From: Patescibacteria group bacterium
GTDB taxonomy: Bacteria; Patescibacteriota; Microgenomatia; UBA8517
Assembly (NCBI GenBank): GCA_035291665.1
Contig: DATDRP010000001.1
Span: 223,127-287,126, forward strand
Reading direction: 5' to 3'
DNA: 64,000 bases
This document shows, piece after piece, positions 34,486 to 64,000 of the stretch; position 1 is the first letter of the stretch, and every line of letters starts with the position of its first letter. The position numbers were made by a program, and so were the translations under genes. A model generated the notes under the pieces. It did not search any database. It saw only the letters and a program-made list of their open reading frames with translations, and was not told the origin of the DNA.

Positions 34486-35202
34486 ATGCCAAATTATTAC
34501 TCCCGCAGAAGCAAAGTCCAGGATAAAAAAAATAAATCGAGCGCTTTCATCCTATTTTCTCTGACAATTGTAATTTTAATTCTTGTTTTTTTCTACGGAA
34601 TACCTGCGATGATTAAATTTGCCGTTTTTATTGCCGATCTTAAGAAAACTTCGCAGGTTGATGAATCTTCTGACACTCTCGCCCCTTCAACGCCGAGGAT
34701 TGATTCGATTTCTGAATTCACCAATAACGCCGACCTGGAAATCGTCGGTTATACGGAATCGGGGGCAATTGTCACCATCTATTACAATAATAAAAATGAA
34801 GAAACCGTTGCCAATAATGAAGGCGGTTTCAGGTTCAAAATTAGCTTAAAAGAAGGATTAAATACTTTTTCATTTATCTCAAAAGATTCTTCCGGAAATG
34901 AGAGTCCGCGGTCAAAAACACAAACCGTTACATATGACAAAACTCCGCCTTCATTAGACATCAAATCCCCCCCCGACAATGGAAACGTATATGGGGATAT
35001 TAACAAAAATCTTGAAATTACAGGTACAACTGACCCCGAAATCAAAATCTATGCTAACGACAGATTGACAAGCTCGGATGAAAATGGAAACTTTAAAATC
35101 CGAGTATATTTATCGGAAGGAGCAAACAGCATTACGCTGAAAGCTGTTGACAATGCGCAAAACGAAACAGAAAAGTCTCTAACTATCAATTTTTATCCTT
35201 AA
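34486..35202 (+). CDS. Membrane-anchored protein with bacterial Ig-like repeats
   Basis: Start moved to ATG 34486, because the tracked ORF start at 34432 overlaps tRNA-Thr. N-terminal transmembrane helix and two Ig-like beta-sandwich repeats. The C-terminus overlaps the convergent gene. Confidence 0.5.
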   Translation: MPNYYSRRSKVQDKKNKSSAFILFSLTIVILILVFFYGIPAMIKFAVFIADLKKTSQVDESSDTLAPSTPRIDSISEFTNNADLEIVGYTESGAIVTIYYNNKNEETVANNEGGFRFKISLKEGLNTFSFISKDSSGNESPRSKTQTVTYDKTPPSLDIKSPPDNGNVYGDINKNLEITGTTDPEIKIYANDRLTSSDENGNFKIRVYLSEGANSITLKAVDNAQNETEKSLTINFYP

Positions 35203-36352
35203 CTCTTACGGACAGAGCTCCCAATATCAGTACTAGTGGAACGGCAACATACGGGTAAAACAAAGTATTGTTAAAGAAAGAATGAACAAAGAGTGAGGCA
35301 AATAATGGCTTTACCAAAATTAAATCGCTTTTATAAATCTTCCCATAGATCTTTTGCCCCAAATCAATAAAAAGCAAAAGTCCTATTACACCGGTTGTAG
35401 AAAGAATATATAACATACTCGAATCGCTTCCGGCGCAGGAACGGGATTGTGTCTGAAACTCGCCCCGATAAGCGCAAAGATTGTTGTAACCAATTCCAAA
35501 AAGCGGATTTTGATAAATTATATTTGAAAATTCTTTATAATTTCTTATCCTGGTGAATACACTGTGAAGCCTTTCAAGTTTAACTCCCTCGCTTTGGTAT
35601 CTGGGAAGAAAAAGAATAAAAAAAACAGAAAATAGGAAAATCAGGAAATACTTCCAATGAAGTTTTTGTCTTAAAAATGCCACTGCTAAAAGTATAAATA
35701 GTCCAAGGTATGTTGCTCTTGAGTAGGTAAAAAGTATTGATATCACCAGAAAGATTATTGTAAGTAAATACTTTCGGTTTTTTGACCGGACAAAAAAATA
35801 GTTGGCAATGGAAATTCCGATCAAGAATAGCGCACCCAAATAGTTCGGATCCAACATTGTGGAAGTCATTCTATAAAGGTGGTCATCCCAGCCCAAAAAC
35901 TTAAGTTCGGTAAGGTTGGGAAAGATAAAATACTGAATCCATCCGAATACACTTAGTACTAAAACGGAGATTAGTAGATACAATAATAACTTATGTTTTT
36001 CAAACTGTTTTGAAATGCTTTCCCTGACAACAATAAACAAGCAAAAGTAAATTATCAAGCGAACGAAATAAAAACTCCCGATAAAGACTTGAGATGGATT
36101 GAATTTCAGAAGCGAAAGAAAATTGATAAAAACTATATAAACAATGATAGAACCAAAAAGTAATTTAAATTTTTTATAATAAGGCTTTATAAATATTACA
36201 GAAAGCAATGCTACCGCATCTATTGCCAGAAGGTTAAGGTGGTTGAACCCGAATAGGTTGTCAATTCTTACCAATTGCCCAAGAGGCAACACCGTTAGAA
36301 TCAAAACAAGGACTATAATTTTCAGATTAACTTTCATGCTTTTTGGTATCAA
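35186..36352 (-). CDS. O-antigen ligase / Wzy_C-family polytopic membrane protein
   Basis: About 10 transmembrane helices and a periplasmic loop with YSRATYLG (O-antigen ligase-like). 388 aa. Confidence 0.55.
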   Translation of the reverse strand: MIPKSMKVNLKIIVLVLILTVLPLGQLVRIDNLFGFNHLNLLAIDAVALLSVIFIKPYYKKFKLLFGSIIVYIVFINFLSLLKFNPSQVFIGSFYFVRLIIYFCLFIVVRESISKQFEKHKLLLYLLISVLVLSVFGWIQYFIFPNLTELKFLGWDDHLYRMTSTMLDPNYLGALFLIGISIANYFFVRSKNRKYLLTIIFLVISILFTYSRATYLGLFILLAVAFLRQKLHWKYFLIFLFSVFFILFLPRYQSEGVKLERLHSVFTRIRNYKEFSNIIYQNPLFGIGYNNLCAYRGEFQTQSRSCAGSDSSMLYILSTTGVIGLLLFIDLGQKIYGKIYKSDLILVKPLFASLFVHSFFNNTLFYPYVAVPLVLILGALSVRVKDKN

Positions 36353-37076
36353 GAAAATACTGCGACCAGGATAAAAATGAATGAAGAGACATGATAGCCG
36401 CGATCACAAATCCATGTATGCCATCCAAAAATCCAAATTTAAAAAAATAATTATCAATGAATTTTAAACCGGGATACAATAATACTTTTATAAAGCCGGG
36501 GTTCTTACCTTCCTTCTGATTGTCAATTGCATGCATCCGGGAATATTCATTAATTTTTGATATAAAGTCAAAAAGGTTTTTGTTTGAATCGTGGTAGAGT
36601 GGAAATGTTGCCTCTGTAACCGCGCCTTCCACATCCCAGTACTCATGAACGCTCCTTTTCCAGGTGCCGGTTCCCTTTTTAGCCATGCGGACAAGCCTGA
36701 CTATAGCGTTTTCACCATGGTAAATATATTTACCCAGAAATTTATCAATTCTTTGAAATTTTACCCCATTAATATCGGAACTTTTTATTAGTTCCCGAAT
36801 AACTTGCTTCAATTTAACCGATACACGCTCATCAGCATCAAGAAATAGTATCCACTCACCGCTTGCCTTTCCCAGTGCATAGTTTCTCTGGTCGGAAAAA
36901 CTTTTGAATTGCCGGGAAATTACAACAACATCCAGAGATTTCGCCAAATCAACCGTCTTATCGGTTGACCCGCCATCGCAAACTATTATCTCATCACAAA
37001 AATCCAAATTATGAATTGCAGATCTTATATTCTCCTCTTCGTCCTTTGTGATAATTATTCCCGTCAGCTTTGTCAT
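36327..37076 (-). CDS. Glycosyltransferase family 2
   Basis: GIIITKDEEENI...CDGGSTDKT...LDADERV motif set (DxD). 249 aa. Confidence 0.8.
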   Translation of the reverse strand: MTKLTGIIITKDEEENIRSAIHNLDFCDEIIVCDGGSTDKTVDLAKSLDVVVISRQFKSFSDQRNYALGKASGEWILFLDADERVSVKLKQVIRELIKSSDINGVKFQRIDKFLGKYIYHGENAIVRLVRMAKKGTGTWKRSVHEYWDVEGAVTEATFPLYHDSNKNLFDFISKINEYSRMHAIDNQKEGKNPGFIKVLLYPGLKFIDNYFFKFGFLDGIHGFVIAAIMSLHSFLSWSQYFLDTKKHES

Positions 37077-37082
37077 TTTTAC

Positions 37083-37820
37083 TCAGAATATTTTATAATT
37101 TACGATTTTACCCTTTGTTAATAAATATTTAAGGCAAACTTGAAGGGTTTTTACTCCGTAGATCACGGAATTTTTCAATGATATGGATGATGCGTCATCA
37201 AAATATCTGACGGGGATCGAAATTTCACCGATCCGAAAACCGTTGTAGACCGCAGAGAAAAGAAATTCCTGGTCAAAAACGAAGTCATCGGAAAATTTGG
37301 TGTAAGGAAGCTCTTTCAGTGTATTGGCTTTGTATGCCCGGAAACCCGTATGGAATTCTCCCAAATTTGTACCCAATATGATATTTTCAATTGCAGTTAA
37401 AATCCTATTTGAAATATACTTATAAAACGGCATTCCGTTCTCCAACGCTTCGCGTCTTGTGCGAATTCTATTCCCAAGCATAATATCCACCCACCCGTCC
37501 ATAAGCGGCCGGATCAGCTCTTCTGTCATTGAGCTGTCATATTGGTAATCTGGGTGGATCATCACAACAATATCTGCATGACTTTTTAAAGCTTGGTCAT
37601 AACAAGTCTTTTGGTTGCCGCCGTAGCCGGTATTTATTCCATGTACGACAACATTAATCCCCAGCTTCTTCGCAACCTCAACTGTTTTATCGGCACTTAC
37701 ATCATCAACCAAAATAATATTTTTCGGTATCCGTAATGATTTCGGAATGTCGTTAAAGGTTTTAATTAATGTTTTTTCGGCATTGTATGCCGGCATAACA
37801 ATCACGACTTTTTTATTCAT
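37083..37820 (-). CDS. GT2 polyprenol-phosphate sugar synthase-like (DPM1/Ppm1-like)
   Basis: VVIVMPAYNAEKTL...VDDVSADKT...IHPDYQYD. About 245 aa, soluble, typical DPM1 architecture. Confidence 0.75.
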   Translation of the reverse strand: MNKKVVIVMPAYNAEKTLIKTFNDIPKSLRIPKNIILVDDVSADKTVEVAKKLGINVVVHGINTGYGGNQKTCYDQALKSHADIVVMIHPDYQYDSSMTEELIRPLMDGWVDIMLGNRIRTRREALENGMPFYKYISNRILTAIENIILGTNLGEFHTGFRAYKANTLKELPYTKFSDDFVFDQEFLFSAVYNGFRIGEISIPVRYFDDASSISLKNSVIYGVKTLQVCLKYLLTKGKIVNYKIF

Positions 37821-37958: not shown

Positions 37959-40226
37959 TCAGATTCTTGACCTGAGAAGACTTTTGTACACTTTTACTCC
38001 CCCTTCCGTAAATATAAGATCCTGATTCGGAAGTTCAAACTCTCCCTCAACGATTGTGTAGGTCAATATGGCGTCTGAATTGCCTCTTATCCTTACTTCT
38101 CCTACCTTCACCGGTTCATTCCCTAAATACCAAAGAAGATATTGATAATTTTCAGCAAAATCTCCTCCGAATTGGTCATCTTTTCCCATCCGTTTCAGGT
38201 TATACGGTAAGCTTCCTGCATCTTTGATAATCCCATCGGACAGCTTTTTTTGTAATAAATACGGTACGCTTCCGTTGTCAATATGAGATCCACTCATGAA
38301 AAGCCAATATATCGAAAAAGACCATTTCAGTGATGAGAAAACTGCAAACAATAAAACGGTTATCAATAAGAATCGTATTTTATTGGAAGATAGTTCCAAA
38401 AAAAGTCCGATAATTAAAATAGGTATAAAAAATACAGGCAAATAGTAATGTAGAGGAGGTTTGCCATGAACAAATATTGATAAATAACCCAGTAATAAAA
38501 ATAGATAAAAAAGTTTTATTAATTTTTTATTTCTTGCATTCAAATTCGCTGACCGAAAATAAAAAAAACCGGATATAACTAAAATGAAGATTATCAATCC
38601 GAGTTCCTGGTTTTGAACTGTAAAAATGCTGGCTATGAAGTCATATAAAGACTTAATATTTGAAGATATTACATCTGACGTAGCGTTATTTTTCGGATAA
38701 AAACCCAAAAATCCGGCGATCCTGTATGGAATCCAAAGAAAAATATTTTTTGTCATTTGGAAGCCATTCTTGGCATCGTACACCAAAGAAGGAAGAACCG
38801 GGATCAACATTCCCCACGTAAAATATTTCCAAAATACCTTCGACTTCAAATATCCCAAAACCAAATAACAAAAAAACATTGGCGGAATAAGAATGAGGAC
38901 GCTAAGATGAAAATTCAACATTAGTCCGAATATCAAAAATACAGCGAAGAGGTACTTCTTTTTGGTCAATGATTTCATGAAAAAATGGAAAAACGGGAAA
39001 AATAAAACCAAAACCAGCGAAAAAAACATGCTTGCTTGCGATAGTTGAATGAAGGGGGCGGACACAGAAACTATCAAACTGGTGAGTAGTGCAGAGCCTT
39101 TTGTCATCCATTTCGAAACATATATATAATTCAAAAGAATTACCAAAGACGACATGGATGCCATGAATAAAGCCGGTGTGAACGGATTAAATTTTGAATA
39201 TTTGAAAATCGGAATCATTAGCCAATAATATAAAGGTCCGAATCTCATCCAGGGGTGTGAAGTTTGAGGACCAACCAAAGGAAGAATTCCTCGTACCATA
39301 TAGTTTTTTAATTCAACGTAAACATGTCCCAGCTCACCATGAAGTGTAAAATTTTCTTCCAGCCGGAAAAACCTTAAAAATATTCCTAACGCAAAAACGA
39401 GGAGAAACATTACATCAAATTTTGAGAACCGGCAAAAGCCTTCAACCAAGAGAGCCGGAAGTAGTCCAAAGTATTTCTTGAAATAATAAAAACGGCTGTT
39501 TTGGAATATTTTGTCGGGGGTTTTTGATTCGGAGGAATTTTCCTGATGATATGCAACCGATTCATTAACGACGTGTTCAGAATATCCCAGTTTTTTCAAG
39601 CGTTTACCAAGATCATATTCTTCAAAATATAAAAACATCTTCTCATCGAATCCACCGGCTTCCAAAAATAATTCCTTATTTACCATAACCACAGATCCCT
39701 GAACAGCATCTACTTTTATTCCTCGCGAGCTATTCTGTAAAGGTCTGTAAAATTGTTGCGCAACTTTATTATTCGGAAACACCTTGTTGATAAAACTCAG
39801 TGCAAATATACCCTTGAGAGGGGTAAGTTCTGAATACCCATGGACGGTCGGGGTTTCAAGTTCTTCATCTGAAAAAAGTCTCGGGGCGGCAACGGCCGAT
39901 TTCTTATTTTTCAACATAAAAGCCAGAAGTTTATCTGCATTTTCCCGGTCAATTCTAGCGTCAGGATTAAGAATAAGGACAAATTTTCCATTTGAGTTTT
40001 TTATACCCAAATTGTTCCCTCCCCCATAACCAGTATTTTTTACGTTTCGAATATATTTGATGTCGGGAGATATTTTCCGAAGTCCTTTTTTGAGATTCTT
40101 GGACTTCCCGTTATCAACCACCACAACTTCAACACCCTTCAGGTTGCCAAAATAAGATAGGCATCCAAGAGTTTCCCGATTACTTTTATACGAAACTATA
40201 ACAATTGAATATCCCCTTTGCTTCAT
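37959..40226 (-). CDS. Fusion: N-terminal GT2 domain plus C-terminal ~12-TM GT-C-like membrane domain
   Basis: N-terminus SIVIVSYKS...VVDNGKS...NPDARID (GT2). From residue ~250 a polytopic membrane region with a C-terminal periplasmic domain. 755 aa. Confidence 0.7.
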   Translation of the reverse strand: MKQRGYSIVIVSYKSNRETLGCLSYFGNLKGVEVVVVDNGKSKNLKKGLRKISPDIKYIRNVKNTGYGGGNNLGIKNSNGKFVLILNPDARIDRENADKLLAFMLKNKKSAVAAPRLFSDEELETPTVHGYSELTPLKGIFALSFINKVFPNNKVAQQFYRPLQNSSRGIKVDAVQGSVVMVNKELFLEAGGFDEKMFLYFEEYDLGKRLKKLGYSEHVVNESVAYHQENSSESKTPDKIFQNSRFYYFKKYFGLLPALLVEGFCRFSKFDVMFLLVFALGIFLRFFRLEENFTLHGELGHVYVELKNYMVRGILPLVGPQTSHPWMRFGPLYYWLMIPIFKYSKFNPFTPALFMASMSSLVILLNYIYVSKWMTKGSALLTSLIVSVSAPFIQLSQASMFFSLVLVLFFPFFHFFMKSLTKKKYLFAVFLIFGLMLNFHLSVLILIPPMFFCYLVLGYLKSKVFWKYFTWGMLIPVLPSLVYDAKNGFQMTKNIFLWIPYRIAGFLGFYPKNNATSDVISSNIKSLYDFIASIFTVQNQELGLIIFILVISGFFYFRSANLNARNKKLIKLFYLFLLLGYLSIFVHGKPPLHYYLPVFFIPILIIGLFLELSSNKIRFLLITVLLFAVFSSLKWSFSIYWLFMSGSHIDNGSVPYLLQKKLSDGIIKDAGSLPYNLKRMGKDDQFGGDFAENYQYLLWYLGNEPVKVGEVRIRGNSDAILTYTIVEGEFELPNQDLIFTEGGVKVYKSLLRSRI

Positions 40227-40307
40227 ATCTGTTTAAAATCGCTCATATCGCTTCATCTTTGCAAATAATATTTTGGATATCTATAATACTTCTAACCAAA
40301 AGTTGAA

Positions 40308-46781: not shown

Positions 46782-46808
46782 TAAATGTAGTAAGTATAAA
46801 ATTAAATT

Positions 46809-46840
46809 GCAGGGGAGAGAAAGCAACCCCTGCTTTTTTT
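46809..46840 (+). terminator. Rho-independent terminator
   Basis: GCAGGGG-loop-CCCCTGC stem followed by TTTTTTT, 28 nt after the stop of the 46506 gene. Confidence 0.7.
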
Positions 46841-46856
46841 GAAATCAAGTAGAATT

Positions 46857-56890: not shown

Positions 56891-58496
56891 TGGTCGAAAT
56901 TATTTTTTTTATATACAAAAATGTAGGTGAAATTTTTAATTTGAATAAATCTTCACCGTCATTGTGTTTTACATTAATTCTTTGAATTTTAAATCGGTTG
57001 TCTTTTAATTTTGAATAATAATTATTTTCTGTTGTAAACGCTGCTTTAAATTTATTTACCTTTAATAATTTAACCATATTTTCATTGTGTTGTCCGTGAG
57101 GATAAGCAAAATATTTAGTTTTTATTCCAATATATTTTGACAGTAACATTTTTGACAAAATAATATCAACCGAAGCTTCTTCCGGGCTTATTTGGGTCAT
57201 ATCCCGGTGAGTATGGTTATGGGATCCGATCGTCCACCCTTCGGCTTTAAGGCGTTTCAAATCGAGTACATTCAAATATACTTTACCTTGTTTCTTATTC
57301 ATCAAATTATTGCTATTTATAAACACAGTTGGTTTGATAGCCAATTTATTTAGTTCTTCAACAATAGACAAAACACTCTTCAATCCGTCATCAAATGTAA
57401 GCATATAATTTCCTTTGAACTTATTTGCGAAGCTGAAAAATCTGTCAGGAAGAACGAATCGATATATATTGTTAATATAATTAATCTGACGAATAAAAGT
57501 GTTCTTGTCTACCGTATAGTCATCGTCATGATTTCCTATTTCATGATAATTAATTACTAATAAATCAATCTTTCTGACAAGAAATTTATCGCTCAAGGCA
57601 AATATTAATACGCTGAATTTAATACTAAACTTAACAAGTGTATCGATTGTTTTTTGGTTCTTTTGATATATCATTCCAACAATAAAGGCAATCAATTCAA
57701 TAAGTTTGACAAAACAATAACCAAAAAATACAAACGGTTCTTTGTAAATGTTCTCAACGTTTTTGAAAATATTCTTGATACTTCTGTCATACAAATTTAT
57801 TCTTTTTATCCCTTCAGTTCCTTTTGAGGCCACCCTGATGGAATAAAATCCCATCCAAAATTTTTTAATCATACTTTGGATCAATGTAAAATGGTCAAAA
57901 GATATATGAATTGGATTTTTTAAACGGCTAATTTTTAAGTTTTTCTTGTTTAAATTAATCCAAAATCCCCATTCATCAGATTGGCCGTAAAATTTGTTAA
58001 AAGGAAGCTGATGCTCAGAAAAAAGAGATCTTTTGAAAATCCTGGGAGTTTCTGAGTTCTGGTCTTTTACATAGAGACCCTTTTCGAACGTATAAATTCT
58101 GGACAAAACATTTTTATTGATAATCCCTTTTTCGGTTATATAATAAGCATCGGCAATCATTCGTAAACTCAAAATTTCATCTACCAGCTCTTTTGTCAAA
58201 ATCATATCGTGATCAATATATAAAATATATTTTCCCGATGAGTTCAGGAAACCTTTATTTCTTGCATCATTTTTTTCACCCTGGAAAGTTATAAATTTCA
58301 AATTATGAAGTTTGTAGCTTTTAATCAGATCGGCAACTTCTCCTCCGGCGACAATCACCAATTCCACCAAATTGCTTTTAATTTCTGAAAGAGCTTTTAA
58401 GCACTCTTTCAACTGCATCGGATTACCTTTTATACAAAGATTTATAGATATTTTACGATTTTGAAGAGTTTTCATATTATTCTTTCTCCGTTGCAA
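56880..58496 (-). CDS. Fusion: GT2-like N-terminal domain plus C-terminal polysaccharide deacetylase (CE4/NodB)
   Basis: N-terminus VIVAGGE...YIDHDM (GT2-like). Membrane segment. C-terminal NodB motifs LTFDDGLKS...HNHTHRD. 538 aa. Confidence 0.7.
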   Translation of the reverse strand: MQRRKNNMKTLQNRKISINLCIKGNPMQLKECLKALSEIKSNLVELVIVAGGEVADLIKSYKLHNLKFITFQGEKNDARNKGFLNSSGKYILYIDHDMILTKELVDEILSLRMIADAYYITEKGIINKNVLSRIYTFEKGLYVKDQNSETPRIFKRSLFSEHQLPFNKFYGQSDEWGFWINLNKKNLKISRLKNPIHISFDHFTLIQSMIKKFWMGFYSIRVASKGTEGIKRINLYDRSIKNIFKNVENIYKEPFVFFGYCFVKLIELIAFIVGMIYQKNQKTIDTLVKFSIKFSVLIFALSDKFLVRKIDLLVINYHEIGNHDDDYTVDKNTFIRQINYINNIYRFVLPDRFFSFANKFKGNYMLTFDDGLKSVLSIVEELNKLAIKPTVFINSNNLMNKKQGKVYLNVLDLKRLKAEGWTIGSHNHTHRDMTQISPEEASVDIILSKMLLSKYIGIKTKYFAYPHGQHNENMVKLLKVNKFKAAFTTENNYYSKLKDNRFKIQRINVKHNDGEDLFKLKISPTFLYIKKIISTNGK

Positions 58497-61400
58497 ATGC
58501 AGGTGCAGCTTGGGTTATTTTATGTTCATGAATATTCATAAGAATATTCAAAAACCTTTCTGACTGTACTACCCAAGAATAATTTCTGGACCATTCATAG
58601 GCGTTTTTTGAAAGGATCTTCCTGTATCCGTCCATTGTTGTCAGTCCGACAATCGCTTTAGCTAAGATATCAGAATTTTCCAAAGGCACCAAAAGGCCCG
58701 TTAAGCCGTCGGCAACGGAATCCCGAAGCCCGTTTGTGTCTGAAGCGATCACCGGTGTTCCCGACGCATTTGCTTCAACAACAGTAATTCCCCACCCTTC
58801 AAAAGATGAAGGCTGGATCATTGCCCAGGAACGGGCAAGGATTTCTCTTTTTTCCTTTTCACTCACAAAACCTTTAAATTCAATATTTTCCTGCAAACCA
58901 AGCTTCTCGGTTAACAATTTGAGCTTTTCTTCCGATTCTCCCCGTCCGGCAACTATAAATTTCGCATTGGGTATATCTTTTACAACATCTCTGAAAGCTT
59001 TAATTGCAATGTCAACATTTTTATAATCCATCACACGACCCAAATATGAATATGTTGGTACTTCATATTTTTTCATTCTTGAAAAATCTCTCAAATTAAT
59101 TCCCGGATTAATGACATTGATGTTTTCACCGAGAGTCATATTTTCCTTGAGAATATCGTTTTTACTGGACTCCGATACGGTAACAACTTCAACATTTCTA
59201 TACACATTGGGCATCAGTTTCCCTTCAAGAAAACTTGCAAAATACGAAAACGGAAAAATGAGGTGTTTCCTGAAAATTGCCTGATGAACATGATGAATCA
59301 GAAGAACTTTTGGTAAATTTGAAAACAATGGTGAATAAAAAGGAATCCCATTTTCACAATCGACGACAAAGTCAAATTTTCCTCTCATTTTCAGAATATA
59401 ATATATCGGTACCCAAGCATATAAAGTAAAAAACCCGCCTCTTCGTATAATATTAACTCCTTTCAATTTTTCGTCGAATTTGTTTTTACCGTCATTGCCG
59501 CAGAATATTGTTACTCCGTAGCCCTTTTTGACCCACTTTTTTGCAAGCTCGTTAACATATACTTCAGCACCACCTGCCCATCTGTGCTTTATGTCTCTCC
59601 AGTTAAGGATAAGAATATTCAGTCTATTATCTGAATGTGAAACATTTAAAGGCTTTAGCAAATACAATAAAGACACCAGGTTAATCCTCAATGACGTCAT
59701 TTTTACAGTCAGAATATGAAGTGCAAATGTTGAGACAAAATACGATAGCGATGCTGCATAGATAGAACTGACAATTTGTCCAATAGTATCGTGGTTTTGA
59801 ATGATGTATAAAACCTCAAATGCGCTGATCAAAAAACCCAAAAGAGAAAAAGAGTACTGCTTTTTGACTTGGTGATAGGAAACAATTGTCGTTGCCAGAG
59901 TAAACGCAGCAATCGCAAGCGCATAATGCGGTAGATATTCAATAATCTGATAAGCTTTATTTCCAAATAGAAATGGCGCAGAAAGGGTTGAAAATACACC
60001 CAATCCGATATACGAAATTACGATAACTCCGAAGGTTAACCCAAAGATAGCATAAAATGTTTTTAAGCTATCTTTACCTTCACCAATTTTCCTGGCAACC
60101 ACAGGTGTAACAAAACTCGGGAAGAGACTTCCCAAAAAGAAGATCATTTTTCCGCAAAGGGAAAGTATTGCATATTTCCCGGCACTTTCCGGATCCAGAA
60201 GAAAAGTTGCCAATACAACATCAGCGCTCAAAAAGAATGCGACTGTAAACCTATTCAAAAGAGTTGTCAAATAAAATTTGAAGGGAAAATCCGCTTTTAC
60301 TTTAACCCCCCTGCGAATTTTGTTTTCGGGTATTTTCGAAACAATAAACCAGCCAATCAGGAGCGACATAAATAATGAAAACGGCTGATTGTAATAAATG
60401 AGATTAACATTACCAAGAGTTACGGACACAAACGCACCCAGCAGTTTGATAATCGGTACAATAATAGTAATCGCAGCCAGCATGTTGAACTTATGGTTAC
60501 CGCTTAAAAATCCCTGATCAACTGCGGTAATTGCAGAAATAATCAAAGTCGGTGCAACAACGAACAAGGCTAAATCGTTATCATACAAACCCTTTTCTGA
60601 TAAGAATAGCGAACCTATTGCCCAAATAATTCCTACCGGAAGTAATATCAAAAAAGCATATTTTCTGTATTTTGACCAATAATCTTTCCTAATGCCTCCG
60701 CGCCTACCCAATAAATATGCAGCTTTGTAAGAAACTGTGATCAACAGCGTTGCCGTTACGACACTTATAATAAGGTATGCATTAGTCATCAGGCTGGCTG
60801 ATCCGAATTCGGAATAAGTCAAAACCCTACCCAAATAGGCGTTATAAATGTAATTAAGGATGTTGGCGATAATATTCGAAACAATTAAAAGTCCTCCCCC
60901 GAATAGCAAAGTATTAACTTTTCCGAAGATATTGATCGGACTCAAGCGGTTTTTTACTGCAGAATAGCTTGTAAACTCGTGAGAGTCGGATTTCGAATCA
61001 TAGAGAATTTTTTCGGTTGGTTTTTTATTAAAAGTTAATACATTAACGTTGGGAATTAAATTTTTAAGATATGCAAAAGAAATATTAATTTTCGGAAATT
61101 CAAACGTTGGAATAATTGTAATTTCAGGAATAAATGCAACTTTAACTTTGTTCTCGGCTTGTAAATGCAAACCATGTTTGGTTTTCTCCCAATAGTATGG
61201 TTTTGCGATTAATTGATAAAAAGCAATAAAGGCAGCCACGAATGAAAGCATCCAATAAAAAGGAATAAAAAATACATACTGTATTAAGTTCCAATAATTG
61301 CGTTTAGCAAGTCCAATCATATTGGAATAAAAATATGTAAAATTTCCGAAAACCATTGTAAAGACTGCGATATAGAAAATATAAGGCGGATACAAAGCTT

Positions 61401-63288
61401 GAATTTGCGGACCCACAAATCGGTAGAGTGTAAAATAAGCAAGCGTCATCAGCCATAAAAACGGATTAATCAGAATAAATACCATTCTCATTGCTATGAT
61501 CAACTGAAAAAGAACAGCATGCAGTTTAAATTCCCTGAAAAACTCTACAGGTTTACGCATATGAACAAAATATGTTTGCATGTATCCTTTGATCCAACGG
61601 GAGCGTTGTCTTATCCAGCTTTTTATTTTACTATTGGCTTCTTCGAAAGTTACGGAATCAATAATCGCACTTTTATACCCTTTTTTAAATAGCCTTGTTC
61701 CCAAATCACAATCTTCCGTAACATTAAATGCATCCCAGCCGTTTAAAGATTTCAAAACCTCTGTTTTAAAATGATTGCTGGTTCCCCCAAGAGGAATGAA
61801 GGTATCAAAAGACTGAAGACCGGGAAGAGCAATATCAAACCAGAATGAATACTCGGAAGTGAACAATTTGGTCAACAAATTCTGATCCTGATTATAGTAA
61901 TTAAGTTTTGATTGAAGACAAATTGTATTCCTGTCTACCTGCCTGAAAGCAAGAAATGCTTTTTTGAGCTGCAATGGATCGGGTTTATCCTCTGCATCAT
62001 AAATAACAAGATAATCACCTGTTGCTTGATTCAGACCGAAATTACAGGCTTTGGGTTTAGTCTTTGGAAGTGAGGCCGGTACAATTAATATTTTATAATA
62101 AGGAGGAAGCTTCAGATCATACGCTTTATTAATAGTAACCGTGTCATCTTCCTCCAAAAGTAGCAACACTTCAAGTTTGTCTTTCGGCCAATCTATTGAT
62201 TCAATTCCTGATACAAATTGTTTTATAACTTCAGCCTCTTTGTATAAAGGACATAAAATAGTGTAGACGGGTAATTTACTGTCATCTATGTCTGCAATCT
62301 GTGATGGCGAAATTGAGATTTCTTTTGATTTCTTCAAAGATCGGAAAATAGTCACGCCTGTAAACAAAAAATCCGATAAATAGATATACGACAATATTCC
62401 TATCAACAACGTAAGTGTTACTTTAGTAAAAAATATAAGTCCGATGACAAACGTAAATCCAAAAAAAGTCAAAACCAGTTTTTGAATCGGTGTAAAGGTT
62501 TTAACTGCCGATAGTTCAGGATCAAGAGCGGAGTGTGTAATATATTTCTTTCCATTGAAAAAATATCCTTGACCGTCGATACTATCAAACTTATATGCTT
62601 TATTCCCCCTGAGCTTAAGTTTTATCGATTCCCCAGCAATTTGTTTGCCCGCTTTTATAAAATCTATTTTTGAAATACCGGCTTTACGCGGTGAAAAACT
62701 AATTTTTATTGTATCAATTTTGTATCCACTTGCCAGGCACGCTTTAAGGATCGGCATGTCGATTGTCCATTCTTTCACATCGTTTTCACTCAGAAGATCG
62801 ATAACTTCGTGCCTGAAAGCCTTAAGTCCCGATTGAGTATCGCAATCAAATCCGTGAAGTAACTTCTCAAAAATGAGCTTATTCATTGCACTACCCAAGC
62901 GTCTTAGGATTGAGGTCTTTTTACCTGATCTATTCGCGACAACTACTCCAGTATTCTCATCCTCGAGCTTCTGAAGCATTTCAGGAATGGCTTCAGGAGG
63001 ATATTGAAGGTCTCCATCGATCATAACCAGCATCTTTCTGTCTGAAACACTTGAGGCTTCCAAAATGCTGTAAGCTTTTCCCTGACGACCTTTTTTCGTT
63101 AAAAGAATAATTGGGTAAAACTGCTTCAATGCCGAAACCATTGATGCCGTGTTATCCTCGGAAAGGTCGTCCACAAATATAATCCTATATTCATATTTAC
63201 TAGCCAAACTAACATGAATGCGTTTGACCAGTTCAAATATATTTTGTGCTTCATTTTTTACCGGAACAATTACATCAACCTTATTCAT
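58477..63288 (-). CDS. Giant multidomain synthase: GT2, processive GT2 (D, DxD, TED, QxxRW), about 14 transmembrane helices, GT4
   Basis: 1603 aa. Domain 1: VIVPVKNEAQNI...FVDDLSEDNT...IDGDLQYP. Domain 2: ILCPLYKEAEV, YDAEDKPDP, VTEDCDLG, QRSRWIKG, which is the cellulose/chitin/PNAG-synthase motif set. Long polytopic region. C-terminus EGWGITVVEANASGTPVIASDTNG (GT4 E-x7-E). Confidence 0.75.
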   Translation of the reverse strand: MNKVDVIVPVKNEAQNIFELVKRIHVSLASKYEYRIIFVDDLSEDNTASMVSALKQFYPIILLTKKGRQGKAYSILEASSVSDRKMLVMIDGDLQYPPEAIPEMLQKLEDENTGVVVANRSGKKTSILRRLGSAMNKLIFEKLLHGFDCDTQSGLKAFRHEVIDLLSENDVKEWTIDMPILKACLASGYKIDTIKISFSPRKAGISKIDFIKAGKQIAGESIKLKLRGNKAYKFDSIDGQGYFFNGKKYITHSALDPELSAVKTFTPIQKLVLTFFGFTFVIGLIFFTKVTLTLLIGILSYIYLSDFLFTGVTIFRSLKKSKEISISPSQIADIDDSKLPVYTILCPLYKEAEVIKQFVSGIESIDWPKDKLEVLLLLEEDDTVTINKAYDLKLPPYYKILIVPASLPKTKPKACNFGLNQATGDYLVIYDAEDKPDPLQLKKAFLAFRQVDRNTICLQSKLNYYNQDQNLLTKLFTSEYSFWFDIALPGLQSFDTFIPLGGTSNHFKTEVLKSLNGWDAFNVTEDCDLGTRLFKKGYKSAIIDSVTFEEANSKIKSWIRQRSRWIKGYMQTYFVHMRKPVEFFREFKLHAVLFQLIIAMRMVFILINPFLWLMTLAYFTLYRFVGPQIQALYPPYIFYIAVFTMVFGNFTYFYSNMIGLAKRNYWNLIQYVFFIPFYWMLSFVAAFIAFYQLIAKPYYWEKTKHGLHLQAENKVKVAFIPEITIIPTFEFPKINISFAYLKNLIPNVNVLTFNKKPTEKILYDSKSDSHEFTSYSAVKNRLSPINIFGKVNTLLFGGGLLIVSNIIANILNYIYNAYLGRVLTYSEFGSASLMTNAYLIISVVTATLLITVSYKAAYLLGRRGGIRKDYWSKYRKYAFLILLPVGIIWAIGSLFLSEKGLYDNDLALFVVAPTLIISAITAVDQGFLSGNHKFNMLAAITIIVPIIKLLGAFVSVTLGNVNLIYYNQPFSLFMSLLIGWFIVSKIPENKIRRGVKVKADFPFKFYLTTLLNRFTVAFFLSADVVLATFLLDPESAGKYAILSLCGKMIFFLGSLFPSFVTPVVARKIGEGKDSLKTFYAIFGLTFGVIVISYIGLGVFSTLSAPFLFGNKAYQIIEYLPHYALAIAAFTLATTIVSYHQVKKQYSFSLLGFLISAFEVLYIIQNHDTIGQIVSSIYAASLSYFVSTFALHILTVKMTSLRINLVSLLYLLKPLNVSHSDNRLNILILNWRDIKHRWAGGAEVYVNELAKKWVKKGYGVTIFCGNDGKNKFDEKLKGVNIIRRGGFFTLYAWVPIYYILKMRGKFDFVVDCENGIPFYSPLFSNLPKVLLIHHVHQAIFRKHLIFPFSYFASFLEGKLMPNVYRNVEVVTVSESSKNDILKENMTLGENINVINPGINLRDFSRMKKYEVPTYSYLGRVMDYKNVDIAIKAFRDVVKDIPNAKFIVAGRGESEEKLKLLTEKLGLQENIEFKGFVSEKEKREILARSWAMIQPSSFEGWGITVVEANASGTPVIASDTNGLRDSVADGLTGLLVPLENSDILAKAIVGLTTMDGYRKILSKNAYEWSRNYSWVVQSERFLNILMNIHEHKITQAAPAFATEKE

Positions 63289-63608
63289 AGAAAAAAAAAT
63301 AGCCTCAACGGCTATTAAATAATTATAGGATATTATACTTAATTAAGTCTTCAAAATCAAGCTAAAAGGTCAATATGTTGACAATATTTACTCATATTAA
63401 ATTGCTGGCAGGATGTTTCTATACTTTATGGGTTAATAACCGTTTAGAATAACCCCGTTATAACCTGCGAAAACAGTATATCAATTCCGTGTCTATAATC
63501 AAGAAACATTAAATAAAATCCTACGAAGGTATTAGAAAATAAAGTTTTTTATTTGAGAAAATGGAAGCTTTCAAACTGTGAATCACACTCAAACTTTGGC
63601 CATGAACT

Positions 63609-64000
63609 TTATGATTTGTTGCTTTTTATTTTATCGGCCATATAATTATTAACCTTAAGGAGCGATTCAAACGTTCCCGCATCTTCCCACAAACCATCAA
63701 TTATATTCACTTTCAGATTACCTTTCTTCAGATAAATATTATTTATATCAGTAATTTCCAACTCACCGCGTTTTGATGGTTTTAAATTTTTTGAATAACT
63801 GACAACTTTTGAATCATAAACATATAACCCGGTAACTGCAAAATTACTTTTGGGTTTATTCGGTTTTTCCTCAATACTTACTGCTTTCATTTGCGAATCA
63901 AACTCGACTACGCCAAACCTATCCGGATCCGGAACTTTTTTGGCAAATATCATACCGCCACTCCGGAATTTCTCAATATCCGATTCAAAATTATCATCAA
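63609..64000 (-). CDS. rmlA: Glucose-1-phosphate thymidylyltransferase-like sugar nucleotidyltransferase (C-terminal part; N-terminus beyond the window end)
   Basis: In-frame upstream translation continues to the window edge (DDNFESDIEKFRSGGMIFAKKVPDPDRFGVVEFD...), matching the RmlA core and C-terminus. Confidence 0.7.
   Translation of the reverse strand, partial: DDNFESDIEKFRSGGMIFAKKVPDPDRFGVVEFDSQMKAVSIEEKPNKPKSNFAVTGLYVYDSKVVSYSKNLKPSKRGELEITDINNIYLKKGNLKVNIIDGLWEDAGTFESLLKVNNYMADKIKSNKS

What the first reader, a model, noticed from the sequence alone, without database searches (positions are those of the whole stretch)
35186..64000. Envelope glycan locus of about 29 kb built around a synthase-dependent exopolysaccharide core
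The right half of the window is a single block of glycan-assembly genes, several overlapping by 4-35 nt as if translationally coupled. One lipid-linked, Wzx/Wzy-type set is present: an O-antigen-ligase-like protein, a Wzx flippase, a DPM1-like GT2 and two or three GT-C membrane transferases. A synthase-dependent set sits alongside it: a processive TED/QxxRW GT2, a CE4 deacetylase and a GH5 hydrolase. Two SAM methyltransferases and an rmlA-like gene are also present. The Wzx/Wzy-type lipid-linked set and the synthase-type set do not usually co-occur in one locus. The domain fusions suggest a compact, possibly undescribed envelope-polymer machinery in a small-genome organism.
Basis: partly seen in the sequence, partly recalled or inferred. 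Interest (0 to 1): 0.7.

Follow-up and report, generated by a model that had tools for sequence, protein, structure and literature searches.

The report
Fused glycan factory of CPR bacteria
The right half of the window is a real cell-surface sugar-polymer gene cluster from a tiny-genome groundwater bacterium; its centre is a 1,603-residue protein that fuses three sugar-adding enzymes to a lipid flippase, and this protein works with membrane transferases in a partnership that recurs across many single-membrane bacteria and, as far as I could find, has not been described.

Summary
From 35186 to the window end, 15 of 20 genes carry glycan-assembly domains: Wzy_C, Wzx, GT2s, GT4s, CE4, GH5, two methyltransferases and an RmlA-like gene.

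The block is not one operon. It has two minus-strand sub-loci, A (49915-64000) and B (35186-46258). Three non-glycan genes separate them, two on the + strand.

The TED/QxxRW synthase is one module of a 1,603-aa fusion:
- a GtrB/DPM1-like GT2;
- a processive-type GT2;
- a cryptic MOP-fold flippase domain, confirmed by AlphaFold2 and Foldseek;
- a GT4.

At least 120 full-length homologues occur in Microgenomates-type bacteria.

- Of 37 relatives with enough flank, 25 keep both GT-Cs, adjacent and in the same order. CE4 occurs in 10 and the GH5 fusion in 2.
- Outside CPR, the synthase sits directly before a GT-C in 21 of 32 loci, often with MshEN, GtrB or GtrA.

Best reading: a synthase-made backbone, possibly beta-mannan-like, is decorated or ligated outside the cell from polyprenyl-phosphate sugars. 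Sub-locus B is a variable add-on. I rate it a new variant of known kinds.

The parts
63609..64000 (-). 3' part of an RmlA-like sugar-1-phosphate nucleotidylyltransferase. The gene continues beyond the window and is 240 aa in L001.
   Evidence: Pfam NTP_transferase. NCBIfam rmlA gives 306 bits on the full protein, below the cutoff of 360. A GalU-like 304-aa gene lies about 1.5 kb further on.
58477..63288 (-). 1,603-aa four-module membrane protein, referred to here as the 'giant'.
   Evidence: At least 120 full-length homologues at 43-57% identity. Catalytic motifs are invariant in all modules across 38 sequences. Fourteen of the 86 fetched loci carry all four modules in one ORF (three are copies of the window's own contig).
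62599..63288 (-). Module 1 (aa 1-230): polyprenyl-phosphate sugar synthase-like GT2 of the DPM1/ArnC/GtrB type. Two TM helices follow at aa 281-310.
   Evidence: PDB profile hits: DPMS 5mlz 5.6e-31, ArnC 9hwj 1.6e-26, GtrB 5ekp 3.8e-22. DGD91 motif.
61189..62313 (-). Module 2 (aa 326-700): processive-type GT2 'synthase' with DAED431, TED524 and QRSRW561, followed by 3-4 hydrophobic helices.
   Evidence: PgaC_IcaA 111.6 bits over aa 326-696, below the cutoff of 422. BcsA 7lby 1.5e-10. 45% identity to the Paenibacillus MshEN-GT2 but only 19% to NfrB.
59644..60921 (-). Module 3 (aa about 790-1215): cryptic MOP-superfamily (Wzx/MurJ/MATE-fold) flippase-like domain.
   Evidence: Pfam Polysacc_synt hits 12 of 20 homologues (best 1.2e-10). 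The window's own copy scores 20 bits, below the threshold. AF2 gives pLDDT 78.8 and pTM 0.77. The listed Foldseek hits (top 50) are all MOP folds: 4mlb, MurJ 6nc9, WzxE 9g95, with TM 0.6-0.7.
58519..59574 (-). Module 4 (aa 1239-1590): GT4 (GT-B fold) glycosyltransferase.
   Evidence: Pfam Glycos_transf_1 at 137.7 bits. PDB hits to MshA, TarM and PimA at 1e-31 to 1e-22. In relatives the MOP module is usually followed directly by this GT4.
56880..58496 (-). GT2 (partial, DHD95), then one TM helix, then a CE4 deacetylase (TFDDG367, HNHTH426). Gene callers place the start at 58475 or 58418.
   Evidence: The CE4 domain is present in 10 of 37 CPR-type relatives. Its position outside the cell is inferred from the single TM helix.
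55976..56890 (-). Core GT2 of 304 aa, a synthase-like catalytic domain (PED188, QSDRY226) without a membrane channel.
   Evidence: Pfam and NCBIfam. It recurs next to the giant in most CPR-type loci.
55077..55973 (-). Core GT2 of 298 aa, PgaC-like (79 bits), with QARRF221.
53558..55111 (-). 517-aa GT-C-fold membrane glycosyltransferase from a family with no Pfam model.
50914..53568 (-). 884-aa fusion of a PMT_2-like GT-C membrane domain (aa 1 to about 520) and a GH5 beta-1,4-mannanase-like domain (aa about 530-884).
   Evidence: Pfam. About 50 full-length homologues, plus hundreds of stand-alone ~540-aa GT-C versions. PDB mannanases 9m20 2.5e-43 and 3pz9 1e-39. hhalign to the 517-aa family gives probability 95.6%.
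49915..50871 (-). GT2 with 2-3 C-terminal TM helices, an architecture like GtrB/ArnC (318 aa).
   Evidence: 68% identical in the closest relative, L034.
46506..49887 (.). Spacer of three non-glycan genes: a 91-aa secreted protein (+, 46506-46781), a 221-aa single-TM protein (-, 46857-47522) and a 734-aa secreted Kelch-propeller/PKD protein (+, 47683-49887).
   Evidence: These genes are absent from the syntenic position in L034.
45038..46258 (-). Stand-alone Wzx-type MOP flippase (406 aa), the first gene of sub-locus B.
   Evidence: PF13440 at 219 bits. MOP flippase NF007773 at 159 bits and TuaB at 138 bits.
43400..45038 (-). Two SAM-dependent methyltransferases (279 and 274 aa) that overlap by 26 nt.
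   Evidence: Their GC is low (0.31) against 0.37 in the left half of the window.
42288..43415 (-). GT4 glycosyltransferase (375 aa).
   Evidence: Pfam Glycos_transf_1 at 88 bits. The best NCBIfam hit is weak: GlcNAc-phosphatidylglycerol synthase, 72 bits against a cutoff of 480.
40308..42194 (-). Secreted 628-aa protein with two lectin-like (3-keto-disaccharide-hydrolase/LamG-like) repeats, a PKD domain and a C-terminal domain shared with the Kelch protein.
   Evidence: Internal duplication at 49% identity. The C-terminus is 41% identical to 47683-49887 over 250 aa.
37959..40226 (-). 755-aa GT2 fused to a membrane domain of about 10 TM helices from an unknown family. It may be a third GT-C, but this is unverified.
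   Evidence: The GT2 domain is confirmed. The membrane domain has no Pfam hit at E<=1 and no hhalign link to either GT-C family.
36327..37820 (-). Two small GT2s: a 245-aa DPM1/AglJ/PpgS-like protein (37083-37820) and a 249-aa protein (36327-37076).
   Evidence: NCBIfam AglJ 74 bits, PpgS 65 bits and dolichyl-phosphate hexose transferase 56 bits, all below their cutoffs.
35186..36352 (-). Wzy_C-domain membrane protein (polymerase, ligase or O-oligosaccharyltransferase family), the last gene of the locus.
   Evidence: PF04932 at 49.4 bits against a cutoff of 31.7, with about 10 TM helices.

Best explanation
This is the envelope-glycopolymer locus of a Microgenomates-type (CPR/Patescibacteria) bacterium. 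It has a conserved core and variable accessories.

**Core (sub-locus A, shown by homology and synteny)**
- The 1,603-aa fusion protein.
- Two soluble synthase-like GT2s.
- Two GT-C membrane transferases.

**Proposed mechanism (inferred)**
1. RmlA-like and GalU-like enzymes supply NDP-sugars.
2. Module 2 polymerises and extrudes a beta-linked backbone. The fused GH5 mannanase suggests a beta-1,4-mannan-like polymer.
3. Module 1, and perhaps the 245-aa and 318-aa GT2s, load a monosaccharide onto polyprenyl phosphate.
4. The GT4 module (module 4) makes a lipid-linked primer or sugar, and the MOP module (module 3) flips the lipid-linked sugars.
5. Outside the membrane, the two GT-Cs transfer those sugars onto the polymer, or ligate the polymer to its acceptor.
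6. In this lineage a membrane-tethered CE4 removes acetyl groups, and the GT-C-tethered GH5 trims or releases chains.

**Sub-locus B**
It comprises Wzx, two methyltransferases, GT4, GT2s and Wzy_C. It is a lineage-variable add-on of lower GC. It probably builds a methylated lipid-linked side unit that Wzy_C polymerises or ligates.

The logic matches the multi-component transmembrane glycosylation of Gram-positive wall polysaccharides. The differences are that the backbone comes from a synthase rather than an ABC-transporter route, and that the cytoplasmic parts are welded into one protein.
For: **The fusion is real and under selection.**
- At least 120 full-length homologues exist, and catalytic motifs are invariant in all four modules.

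**Each module is identified.**
- Module 1 matches DPMS, ArnC and GtrB.
- Module 2 carries DAED, TED and QRSRW, with PgaC-like and BcsA-like matches.
- Module 3 has a MOP fold.
- Module 4 is a GT4.

**Modules occur split and fused in relatives, a Rosetta-stone argument that they work together.**
- The same modules occur as MOP alone, MOP+GT4, GT2+MOP, synthase+MOP+GT4 and GT2+synthase.

**Partners are conserved.**
- Of 37 CPR-type loci with at least 8 kb of flank, 25 have both GT-Cs, always adjacent and in the same order.
- The GT2 pair is likewise conserved.
- Outside CPR, a GT-C follows the synthase directly in 21 of 32 loci.
- Paenibacillus has ManC-like NTP-transferase, MshEN-synthase, GtrB, GtrA and PMT_2 GT-C in one row.

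**The GT-C fold is established**.

**The GH5 domain looks like an active beta-mannanase.**
- Its best matches are beta-1,4-mannanases, and the catalytic Glu residues are conserved.
- The GT-C+GH5 fusion recurs next to synthases in three distant loci.

**There is precedent for a Wzx-type flippase serving a GtrB/GT-C system.**
- GacI/J/K/L in streptococci (PMC8035078) and mixed routes in lactococcal CWPS (PMC9574508).

**Sub-loci A and B are contiguous in L034**.
Against: - No experiment exists for any member, so the polymer, the donors and the acceptor are all inferred.
- QxxRW-type membrane GT2s are not always polymer-extruding. The second-best PDB hit, 6yv7, is an archaeal membrane GT2 with a minimal cellulose-synthase-like fold.
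- Every match to a characterised equivalog is far below its cutoff: PgaC 112 against 422, and NfrB at 19% identity.
- The window's own MOP module is below the Pfam threshold, so its identification rests on homologues and a predicted fold.
- GtrB-like and GtrA genes are seen near the synthase in only 7 and 4 of the 32 non-CPR loci.
- The adjacent nucleotidyltransferases here are RmlA-like and GalU-like, not ManC-like. This weakens the mannan guess for this organism.
- CE4 lacks the usual RxPY motif.
- The topology that places CE4 and GH5 outside the cell is inferred, not tested.
- The link between sub-loci A and B rests on a single relative.
Confidence: 0.55

Rival explanations
1. A secreted PNAG-, chitin- or cellulose-like biofilm exopolysaccharide is made by a classical synthase + deacetylase + hydrolase triad. 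An independent Wzx/Wzy capsule or O-antigen-like pathway merely lies next to it.
For: - All three triad domains are present, and the GH5 catalytic residues and two of the three canonical CE4 motifs are present.
- The best NCBIfam hit for module 2 is PgaC_IcaA.
- CE4 resembles GlcNAc deacetylases.
- Wzx and Wzy_C are both present.
Against: - CE4 and GH5 are accessory, present in 10 and 2 of 37 relatives. The GT-Cs and the GT2 pair are the conserved partners.
- The GH5 domain is mannanase-like, not a PNAG or cellulose hydrolase.
- The PgaC score is 112 against a cutoff of 422.
- No PgaD, PilZ or MshEN regulator is present.
- The synthase is covalently fused to GtrB-like, MOP and GT4 modules.
- No initiating phosphoglycosyl transferase, Wzz or LCP is in the window.
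Confidence: 0.15
2. A lipid-linked assembly line without polymer extrusion. It would resemble the dolichol N-glycan pathway or mycobacterial lipomannan.

- The GT4 and GT2 modules build a glycolipid or lipid-linked oligosaccharide in the cytoplasm.
- The MOP module flips it.
- The GT-Cs elongate it outside from polyprenyl-phosphate mannose made by module 1.
- The product is a lipoglycan, or is transferred to secreted proteins, with Wzy_C acting as a PglL-like O-oligosaccharyltransferase.
For: - Module 1 best matches DPM synthase. Module 4 matches PimA and PimB. The closest structures to the 517-aa protein are Dol-P-Man-dependent ALG12, GPI-MT-I, ALG9 and PimE.
- MOP and GT4 are the most tightly linked pair of modules.
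- The PDB hit 6yv7 shows a cellulose-synthase-like fold in a membrane GT2. I recall it as non-processive, but did not check this.
- Secreted PKD, lectin and Kelch proteins with Thr/Pro-rich linkers lie inside the locus.
- The Paenibacillus neighbour is ManC-like.
Against: - The minimal conserved unit outside CPR is synthase + GT-C, with no MOP or GT4. There the glycan must cross the membrane through the synthase itself.
- Module 2 keeps the full motif set associated with processivity, plus membrane helices after QxxRW.
- A tethered endo-mannanase fits a long polymer better than a short oligosaccharide.
Confidence: 0.25
3. A glycan 'island' of functionally unrelated units. Sub-locus A, sub-locus B and the secreted-protein genes are neighbours only because variable surface genes accumulate at one site. 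They would make separate products.
For: - Two + strand genes and a gap of about 3.7 kb split the block.
- Apart from L034 (Wzx, first methyltransferase) and scattered single-gene matches, sub-locus B genes are absent from the other related loci.
- Part of sub-locus B has a lower GC (0.30-0.32) than the genome (0.37).
- Downstream content after the giant differs widely between Woesebacteria, Amesbacteria and Gottesmanbacteria.
Against: - In L034, homologues of the Wzx (52% identity) and first methyltransferase (45%) genes follow the 318-aa GT2 homologue with no spacer.
- Sub-locus B lacks an initiating transferase of its own, so it probably depends on another pathway.
- All glycan genes share one strand.
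Confidence: 0.3

Closest known systems
Synthase-dependent exopolysaccharide synthases: E. coli PgaC (PNAG), BcsA (cellulose) and NfrB (ManNAc polymer, phage N4 receptor; PMC8669469, PMC8669472)
   Same: - Membrane GT2 with D, DxD, TED and QxxRW motifs, and TM helices on both sides of the catalytic domain.
- Deacetylase and glycoside hydrolase accessories nearby.
- The Firmicute and Actinobacterial homologues of module 2 carry an MshEN c-di-GMP domain, as NfrB does.
   Different: - Similarity is only remote: PgaC model 112 bits against a cutoff of 422, NfrB 19% identity, BcsA 1.5e-10.
- The CPR protein has no PilZ, PgaD or MshEN, and no outer-membrane parts.
- It is fused to three further modules and is always partnered with GT-C transferases. 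None of the classical systems has these.
Multi-component transmembrane glycosylation systems of Gram-positive wall polymers: GtrB/CsbB + GtrA/GtcA + GT-C; streptococcal GacI/J/K/L; lactococcal CsdAB and Wps (PMC8035078, PMC9574508)
   Same: - A polyprenyl-phosphate sugar synthase-type GT2, a flippase and PMT_2/ArnT-like GT-C transferases are encoded together.
- A Wzx-type flippase stands in for GtrA, as GacK does.
- The locus combines a conserved backbone part with a variable side-chain part.
   Different: - The backbone enzyme here is a synthase-type GT2, not an ABC-transporter route.
- The GT2, the flippase and a GT4 form one polypeptide with the synthase.
- One of the GT-Cs carries a glycoside hydrolase.
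- No LCP ligase or initiating transferase is present in the locus.
Uncharacterised Paenibacillus macquariensis cluster (L069): ManC-like NTP-transferase, MshEN-GT2 synthase, GtrB-like GT2, GtrA and PMT_2 GT-C
   Same: - The synthase is 45% identical to module 2 over 475 aa.
- GtrB-like and GT-C partners are homologous to module 1 and to the 884-aa N-terminal domain.
- A nucleotidyltransferase sits upstream, as it does here.
   Different: - The genes are separate rather than fused.
- It has a c-di-GMP (MshEN) input domain.
- It uses GtrA instead of a MOP domain.
- It has no GT4, no second GT-C, no CE4 and no GH5.
- I found no published function.
Mycobacterial lipomannan/LAM and eukaryotic dolichol pathways (from my own knowledge): PimA/PimB GT4, Ppm1/DPM1, a flippase (Rft1-type in eukaryotes), and GT-C mannosyltransferases
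   Same: The enzyme set is the same: GT4, DPM1-like GT2, a MOP-superfamily flippase, and several GT-Cs that resemble Dol-P-Man users (ALG12, ALG9, PimE).
   Different: - Those pathways have no processive synthase-type GT2 and no tethered hydrolase.
- Their enzymes are separate proteins.
- Mannose as the sugar is not established here.

Membership tests
Synthase-dependent EPS synthase (processive membrane GT2) | GT-A catalytic domain with D, DxD, TED and QxxRW motifs | tested here: met
   D382, DAED431, TED524 and QRSRW561 are invariant in 38 homologues.
Synthase-dependent EPS synthase (processive membrane GT2) | Transmembrane channel helices flanking the catalytic domain | tested here: inconclusive
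   Hydrophobicity shows 2 helices before and 3-4 after the domain. No structure of this module was predicted, so the channel is not shown.
Synthase-dependent EPS synthase (processive membrane GT2) | Processive polymerisation coupled to export | not testable with these tools
   This needs an enzyme assay. The PDB neighbour 6yv7 shows that a membrane GT2 with a minimal cellulose-synthase-like fold exists outside the polymer synthases.
PgaC/IcaA PNAG synthase (TIGR03937 equivalog) | Score at or above the curated cutoff of 422.3 bits | tested here: not met
   111.6 bits over aa 326-696. BLASTP gives no alignment of the synthase part to E. coli PgaC.
NfrB-type c-di-GMP-activated synthase | An MshEN c-di-GMP-binding domain fused to the GT2 | tested here: not met
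   The 1,603-aa protein has no MshEN hit and is 19% identical to NfrB. MshEN is present in the Paenibacillus and Nocardioides homologues.
Wzx/Wzy-dependent pathway | Wzx (MOP) flippase | tested here: met
   45038-46258: PF13440 at 219 bits and NF007773 at 159 bits. A second, cryptic MOP domain lies inside the giant.
Wzx/Wzy-dependent pathway | Wzy polymerase or Wzy_C-family ligase | tested here: met
   35186-36352: PF04932 at 49.4 bits against a cutoff of 31.7. Polymerase, ligase and O-OTase roles cannot be told apart.
Wzx/Wzy-dependent pathway | Initiating phosphoglycosyl transferase (WbaP/WecA type) | tested here: not met
   No Bac_transf or MraY-like domain in any window ORF scanned. One could lie elsewhere in the genome.
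Wzx/Wzy-dependent pathway | Chain-length regulator (Wzz/PCP), or an LCP ligase in monoderms | tested here: not met
   None found in the window (same calls).
Multi-component transmembrane glycosylation system (GtrB / flippase / GT-C) | A GT-A enzyme that makes a polyprenyl-phosphate monosaccharide | tested here: inconclusive
   Module 1 matches DPMS, ArnC and GtrB structures by sequence at 1e-31 to 1e-22. It stays below every NCBIfam equivalog cutoff, and activity is untested.
Multi-component transmembrane glycosylation system (GtrB / flippase / GT-C) | A flippase of GtrA or Wzx type | tested here: met
   There is no GtrA, but the MOP-fold module 3 and a stand-alone Wzx are present. The substrate is unknown.
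Multi-component transmembrane glycosylation system (GtrB / flippase / GT-C) | A GT-C-fold membrane transferase | tested here: met
GH5 endo-beta-1,4-mannanase | (beta/alpha)8 GH5 domain with an NEP acid/base and a nucleophile Glu | tested here: met
   PF00150 at 61.6 bits. Mannanases 9m20 at 2.5e-43 and 3pz9 at 1e-39. N706-E707 and E812 are conserved in 13 of 13. Substrate specificity is untested.
CE4 polysaccharide deacetylase | NodB-homology motifs TFDD, H(S/T)xxH and RxPY | tested here: inconclusive
   TFDDG367 and HNHTH426 are present, but the third motif reads AYPHG without the Arg. PF01522 at 69.6 bits.

The most novel reading that the evidence does not exclude
The synthase + GT-C pair may define an unrecognised, widespread route of glycopolymer assembly in single-membrane bacteria (Bacillota, Actinomycetota, Chloroflexota and CPR).

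- A processive GT2 extrudes a backbone.
- A dedicated GT-C then decorates it or ligates it to its envelope acceptor, using polyprenyl-phosphate sugars.
- In Microgenomates all cytoplasmic steps plus the flippase have been welded into one ~1,600-aa 'glycan factory'.
- This factory would make the major envelope polymer of these cells, a beta-mannan-like lipoglycan or wall glycan that stands in for teichoic acids.
- In free-living relatives the same system is switched by c-di-GMP through MshEN.
Probability: 0.25. Interest if true: 0.8.

Novelty: new variant of a known kind. Interest (0 to 1): 0.55.

Why it matters
CPR/Patescibacteria cells live attached to hosts, and their surface chemistry is almost unknown.

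- **A candidate for the main envelope polymer.** This is a conserved set of about five genes, headed by a single four-module protein, and it can be recognised directly from sequence.
- **Evidence that the parts work together.** The fusion argues that a synthase-type GT2, a GtrB-type GT2, a MOP flippase and a GT4 act in one pathway with GT-C transferases. I did not find this combination described.
- **It can be tested in culture.** The same synthase-GT-C pair occurs in culturable Paenibacillus and Nocardioides, so the function can be studied without growing a CPR organism.
- **A new family to curate.** The 517-aa family has no Pfam model and has a confidently predicted GT-C fold.

Tried and rejected
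- **Promoter and terminator scans** gave counts equal to shuffled controls. I did not use them to define operons.
- **Module 3 against the locus's own Wzx.** hhalign of the giant-family profile against the Wzx was not significant (E 0.09). A sequence search of module 3 against PDB found nothing. The MOP assignment therefore rests on Pfam hits in homologues and on the predicted fold.
- **517-aa protein against the 884-aa protein.** BLASTP found nothing. Only the profile-profile comparison linked them.
- **The 755-aa C-terminal membrane domain** could not be assigned:
  - no Pfam hit at E<=1;
  - no hhalign link;
  - a loop after its first TM helix looks ArnT/PMT_2-like from memory, which I count as a lead only.
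- **Literature searches** for CPR or Microgenomates glycosyltransferase fusions, and for MshEN-GT2 proteins in Gram-positives, found no description. This is a limited library, not proof of absence.
- **One contig look-up failed** because the longest-ORF start (TTG) is not the deposited protein.
- **PNAG identity rejected.** The score is far below the cutoff, and the hydrolase is of the mannanase type.
- **Fusion as an assembly or gene-calling artefact rejected.** The fusion recurs without stop codons in many independent assemblies.

Full report
**1. What is in the window**

The left 35 kb holds housekeeping genes of a low-GC (0.37) bacterium:
- enolase, PPDK, a bifunctional PGI/PMI and a PGM/PMM;
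- DnaE, GatA and GatB, L19, RuvC and LexA.

The same contig occurs in JGI metagenome 3300002503, ENA ERZ27254858 and SRR3989307. The nearest named relatives of the locus proteins are Woesebacteria and other Microgenomates. The organism is therefore a CPR/Patescibacteria bacterium.

From 35186 to the window end, 15 of 20 genes carry glycan-assembly domains. No gene in the left half is a glycosyltransferase.

**2. Organisation**

All glycan genes lie on the minus strand, in two groups.

Sub-locus A, in transcription order (from 64000 down to 49915):
- RmlA-like gene;
- the 1,603-aa protein;
- GT2-TM-CE4;
- GT2 (304 aa);
- GT2 (298 aa);
- 517-aa membrane protein;
- 884-aa GT-C+GH5;
- GT2 with C-terminal TM helices (318 aa).

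Sub-locus B, in transcription order (46258 down to 35186):
- Wzx;
- two methyltransferases;
- GT4;
- a secreted lectin/PKD protein;
- GT2 plus a 10-TM domain (755 aa);
- two small GT2s;
- Wzy_C.

Three genes sit between the sub-loci:
- a 91-aa secreted protein (+);
- a 221-aa single-TM protein (-);
- a 734-aa Kelch/PKD protein (+).

Independent gene calls give overlaps of 1-26 nt and several gaps of 1-6 nt. Tight packing is real, but 'one block' is not. Consensus promoter and terminator scans were at chance level.

Beyond the window end lie an RNaseH-like gene and a GalU-like nucleotidyltransferase.

**3. The central object: a four-module protein**

The processive 'TED/QxxRW GT2' is aa 326-700 of the 1,603-aa ORF. 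Its modules are as follows.

- **Module 1 (aa 1-230).** It matches DPM synthase (5mlz, 5.6e-31), ArnC and GtrB. These are enzymes that load a sugar onto polyprenyl phosphate.
- **Two TM helices** follow module 1.
- **Module 2.** It carries DAED431, TED524 and QRSRW561. It matches the PgaC model over nearly its full length, but at 112 bits against a cutoff of 422. It matches BcsA at 1.5e-10.
- **Module 3 (aa about 790-1215).** No Pfam hit passes the threshold in this protein.
  - The Wzx family PF01943 hits 12 of 20 homologues (best 1.2e-10), and PF13440 hits 3 (3e-13).
  - An AlphaFold2 model (pLDDT 78.8, pTM 0.77) matches only MOP-superfamily structures among the listed Foldseek hits. These include the P. 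furiosus MOP 4mlb, MATE transporters, MurJ and WzxE, with TM-scores of 0.6-0.7 over about 440 columns.
- **Module 4.** It is a GT4 (137.7 bits; MshA/TarM/PimA-like).

**4. The fusion is real, conserved and modular**

- At least 120 proteins of 1,500-1,600 aa cover 99% of the query at 43-57% identity. Named sources are Woese-, Ames-, Gottesman- and Roizmanbacteria and 'Microgenomates'.
- Catalytic residues of all modules are invariant across 38 sequences.
- A scan of one genome per species found 594 relatives.
- Among the 86 loci held, the module patterns (GT2 / synthase / MOP / GT4) were:

| Pattern | Loci |
|---|---|
| 1111 | 14 |
| 0111 | 8 |
| 1101 | 5 |
| 1100 | 12 |
| 1110 | 1 |
| 0101 | 1 |
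| 0100 | 45 |

- A profile of module 3 found 460 clusters at E<=1e-30 in a 1.8-billion-protein library. Their architectures include MOP alone (465 aa), MOP+GT4 (831 and 923 aa), GT2+MOP (738 aa), synthase+MOP+GT4 (1,291 aa), MOP+GT4+GNAT and MOP+GT4+GT2.

Repeated fission and fusion of the same parts is classical evidence that they act in one pathway. MOP and GT4 are the tightest pair.

**5. Conserved partners are GT-C transferases, not CE4 or GH5**

*The 517-aa protein.* None of its 120 listed homologues (163 found) has a Pfam domain.
- Its AlphaFold2 model is confident (pLDDT 92.1, pTM 0.93).

*The 884-aa protein.* Its N-terminal half is PMT_2-like. It is remotely homologous to the 517-aa family (hhalign probability 95.6%, E 1e-8, 340 columns).

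*Synteny.* tblastn of all locus proteins against the fetched loci gave the following.
- 46 CPR-type loci were found, and 37 have at least 8 kb downstream of the synthase.
- Among those 37, the 517-aa homologue is present in 28 and the GT-C in 31.
- Both are present in 25, always adjacent and in the same order.
- The CE4 domain is present in 10 and the GH5 domain in 2.
- The 304-aa and 298-aa GT2 pair recurs in most.

*What varies.* What lies between the giant gene and this core differs by lineage.
- Woesebacteria and Gottesmanbacteria carry dTDP-sugar genes, C-methyltransferases and extra GTs.
- An Amesbacterium carries a PIG-L+GT2 fusion where the GT2+CE4 fusion sits here.

The architecture is thus a conserved machine with a variable sugar-specific cassette.

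**6. The same pair outside CPR**

Module 2 is 44-53% identical to proteins of Chloroflexota, Actinomycetota (Nocardioides, Paraconexibacter) and Bacillota (Paenibacillus, Cohnella, Desulforamulus).
- In 21 of 32 such loci with enough flank, a PMT_2-type GT-C starts directly after the synthase.
- MshEN is detectable in 12, GtrB-like genes in 7 and GtrA in 4.

Paenibacillus macquariensis has two tandem sets.
- The first set has a ManC-like NTP-transferase, an MshEN+GT2 synthase (768 aa) and a GtrB-like GT2.
- The second set also includes GtrA and a PMT_2 GT-C.

This is the textbook three-component glycosylation set (PMC9574508, PMC8035078), attached to a synthase that is probably c-di-GMP-controlled.

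The only characterised MshEN-GT2, E. coli NfrB (PMC8669469), is just 19% identical to module 2. This is a distinct subfamily. I found no paper describing it.

**7. Accessories in this lineage**

- **GH5.** The domain is most like endo-beta-1,4-mannanases (9m20 at 2.5e-43, 8gf3, 3pz9, 1rh9). It keeps N706-E707 and E812 in all 13 GH5-bearing relatives. The GT-C+GH5 fusion recurs right after a synthase in three loci:
  - a Woesebacterium (L034);
  - an unclassified bacterium (L059);
  - a Minisyncoccia genome (L060).
- **CE4.** It has TFDDG and HNHTH but lacks the Arg of the third motif. It resembles peptidoglycan GlcNAc deacetylases.
- **Location.** Both domains lie after membrane segments, so an extracytoplasmic position is likely. 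This is inferred.
- **Sugar identity.** The mannanase and the ManC-like neighbour in Paenibacillus hint at a beta-mannan-like backbone. However, the nucleotidyltransferases next to the giant here are RmlA-like and GalU-like. The sugar remains open.

**8. Sub-locus B**

- Wzx (219 bits) and Wzy_C (49 bits) are solid.
- The window contains no initiating phosphoglycosyl transferase, no Wzz and no LCP ligase.
- Four of its genes have low GC (0.30-0.32).
- Apart from scattered single-gene matches (the 249-aa GT2 in L036), its genes are absent from the related loci except L034. There, homologues of the Wzx (52% identity) and first methyltransferase (45%) genes follow the 318-aa GT2 homologue with no spacer.
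- I read it as a variable side-unit module that depends on the core. A PglL-like protein-glycosylation role for Wzy_C cannot be excluded.
- The 755-aa protein's membrane domain stayed unassigned.

**9. Mechanism and verdict**

*Shown:*
- the domain identities;
- the MOP and GT-C folds (predicted);
- conservation of the fusion;
- the synthase-GT-C synteny across phyla;
- the accessory status of CE4 and GH5.

*Inferred:*
- the synthase extrudes a backbone;
- module 1 and the MOP module supply flipped polyprenyl-phosphate sugars;
- the GT-Cs decorate or ligate the polymer outside the cell;
- CE4 and GH5 tailor it.

The main rival is a lipid-linked lipoglycan or protein-glycosylation line without polymer extrusion. 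In its favour is the ALG12/PimE-like GT-C together with the DPM1-like and PimA-like modules. Against it is the minimal synthase+GT-C unit in genomes that lack the MOP and GT4 modules.

The system is built entirely from known families, but in an arrangement and pairing that I could not find described. I therefore rate it a new variant of a known kind, of moderate interest.

Noticed in passing
window 63292-63360 (- strand): A 7-bp hairpin (AATAGCC-GTTGA-GGCTATT) followed by a run of T lies 10-28 nt upstream of the ATG of the 1,603-aa gene. A TTGATT-17-TATAAT match precedes it. It could be a 5'-leader attenuator or the RmlA-like gene's terminator. No Shine-Dalgarno sequence is visible.
   Followed up: no
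window 46419-46438 and 46506-46781 (+): A perfect 8-bp GC-rich hairpin with a T tail on the + strand lies just upstream of a 91-aa ORF. The ORF has a strong GGAGGTGAT ribosome-binding site and a signal peptide, and no Pfam family. Both sit in the gap between the two sub-loci.
   Followed up: partly
window 40308-42194 (-) and 47683-49887 (+): Two secreted proteins share a C-terminal region of about 250 aa (41% identity, E 2.6e-42) that includes a PKD domain. One has tandem lectin-like repeats (49% identical to each other). The other has a Kelch propeller and an unusually high GC (0.43). Both give weak hits to the CPR pilus protein PamR. They are absent from related loci and may be glycan-binding or glycosylated surface proteins.
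   Followed up: partly
window 42288-46258 and 55976-58496: Six glycan genes (GT4, two methyltransferases, Wzx, GT2-304 and GT2-CE4) have a GC of 0.28-0.32 against 0.37 for the left half. This pattern is typical of exchanged, variable glycan cassettes.
   Followed up: no
window 32496-35202 (+): Immediately left of the locus lie envelope-related genes: a LysM protein, a VanZ-like protein and a secreted Big_6/Glucodextran_B protein. The nominal GTG start of the last one overlaps tRNA-Thr (34391-34464), so its true start is probably further downstream.
   Followed up: no
L069 7534-19965 (Paenibacillus macquariensis): A tandem duplication of a cluster comprising a ManC-like NTP-transferase, an MshEN+GT2 synthase and a GtrB-like GT2. 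Only the second copy is followed by GtrA and a PMT_2 GT-C.
   Followed up: partly
L005 15683-17299 (Amesbacteria): A 538-aa PIG-L (LmbE-type deacetylase)+GT2 fusion occupies the position that the 538-aa GT2+CE4 fusion holds in the window. A different deacetylase family is fused to a GT2 at the same place.
   Followed up: no
L009-L011, L018-L020, L023, L025, L027, L030, L032, L033, L035-L038, L046, L048, L049: About 20 MAG records that carry the full Microgenomates-type giant and its GT-C partners are titled 'uncultured Gammaproteobacteria', 'Bdellovibrionales', 'Pseudomonadales' or 'Verrucomicrobiia'. The labels look wrong for this gene content, but I did not verify them.
   Followed up: no
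L031 (Saccharimonadales MAG): Three copies of the two-module gene (GtrB-like GT2 + synthase) lie within 10 kb. There is also a separate MOP and GT4 on the opposite strand, an unfused and amplified version of the system.
   Followed up: no
window 9135-9593 (-) and 23437-25248 (-): A 'putative phage metallopeptidase' domain protein sits among housekeeping genes, and there is a family-X (Pol beta-like) DNA polymerase. Neither relates to the finding.
   Followed up: no
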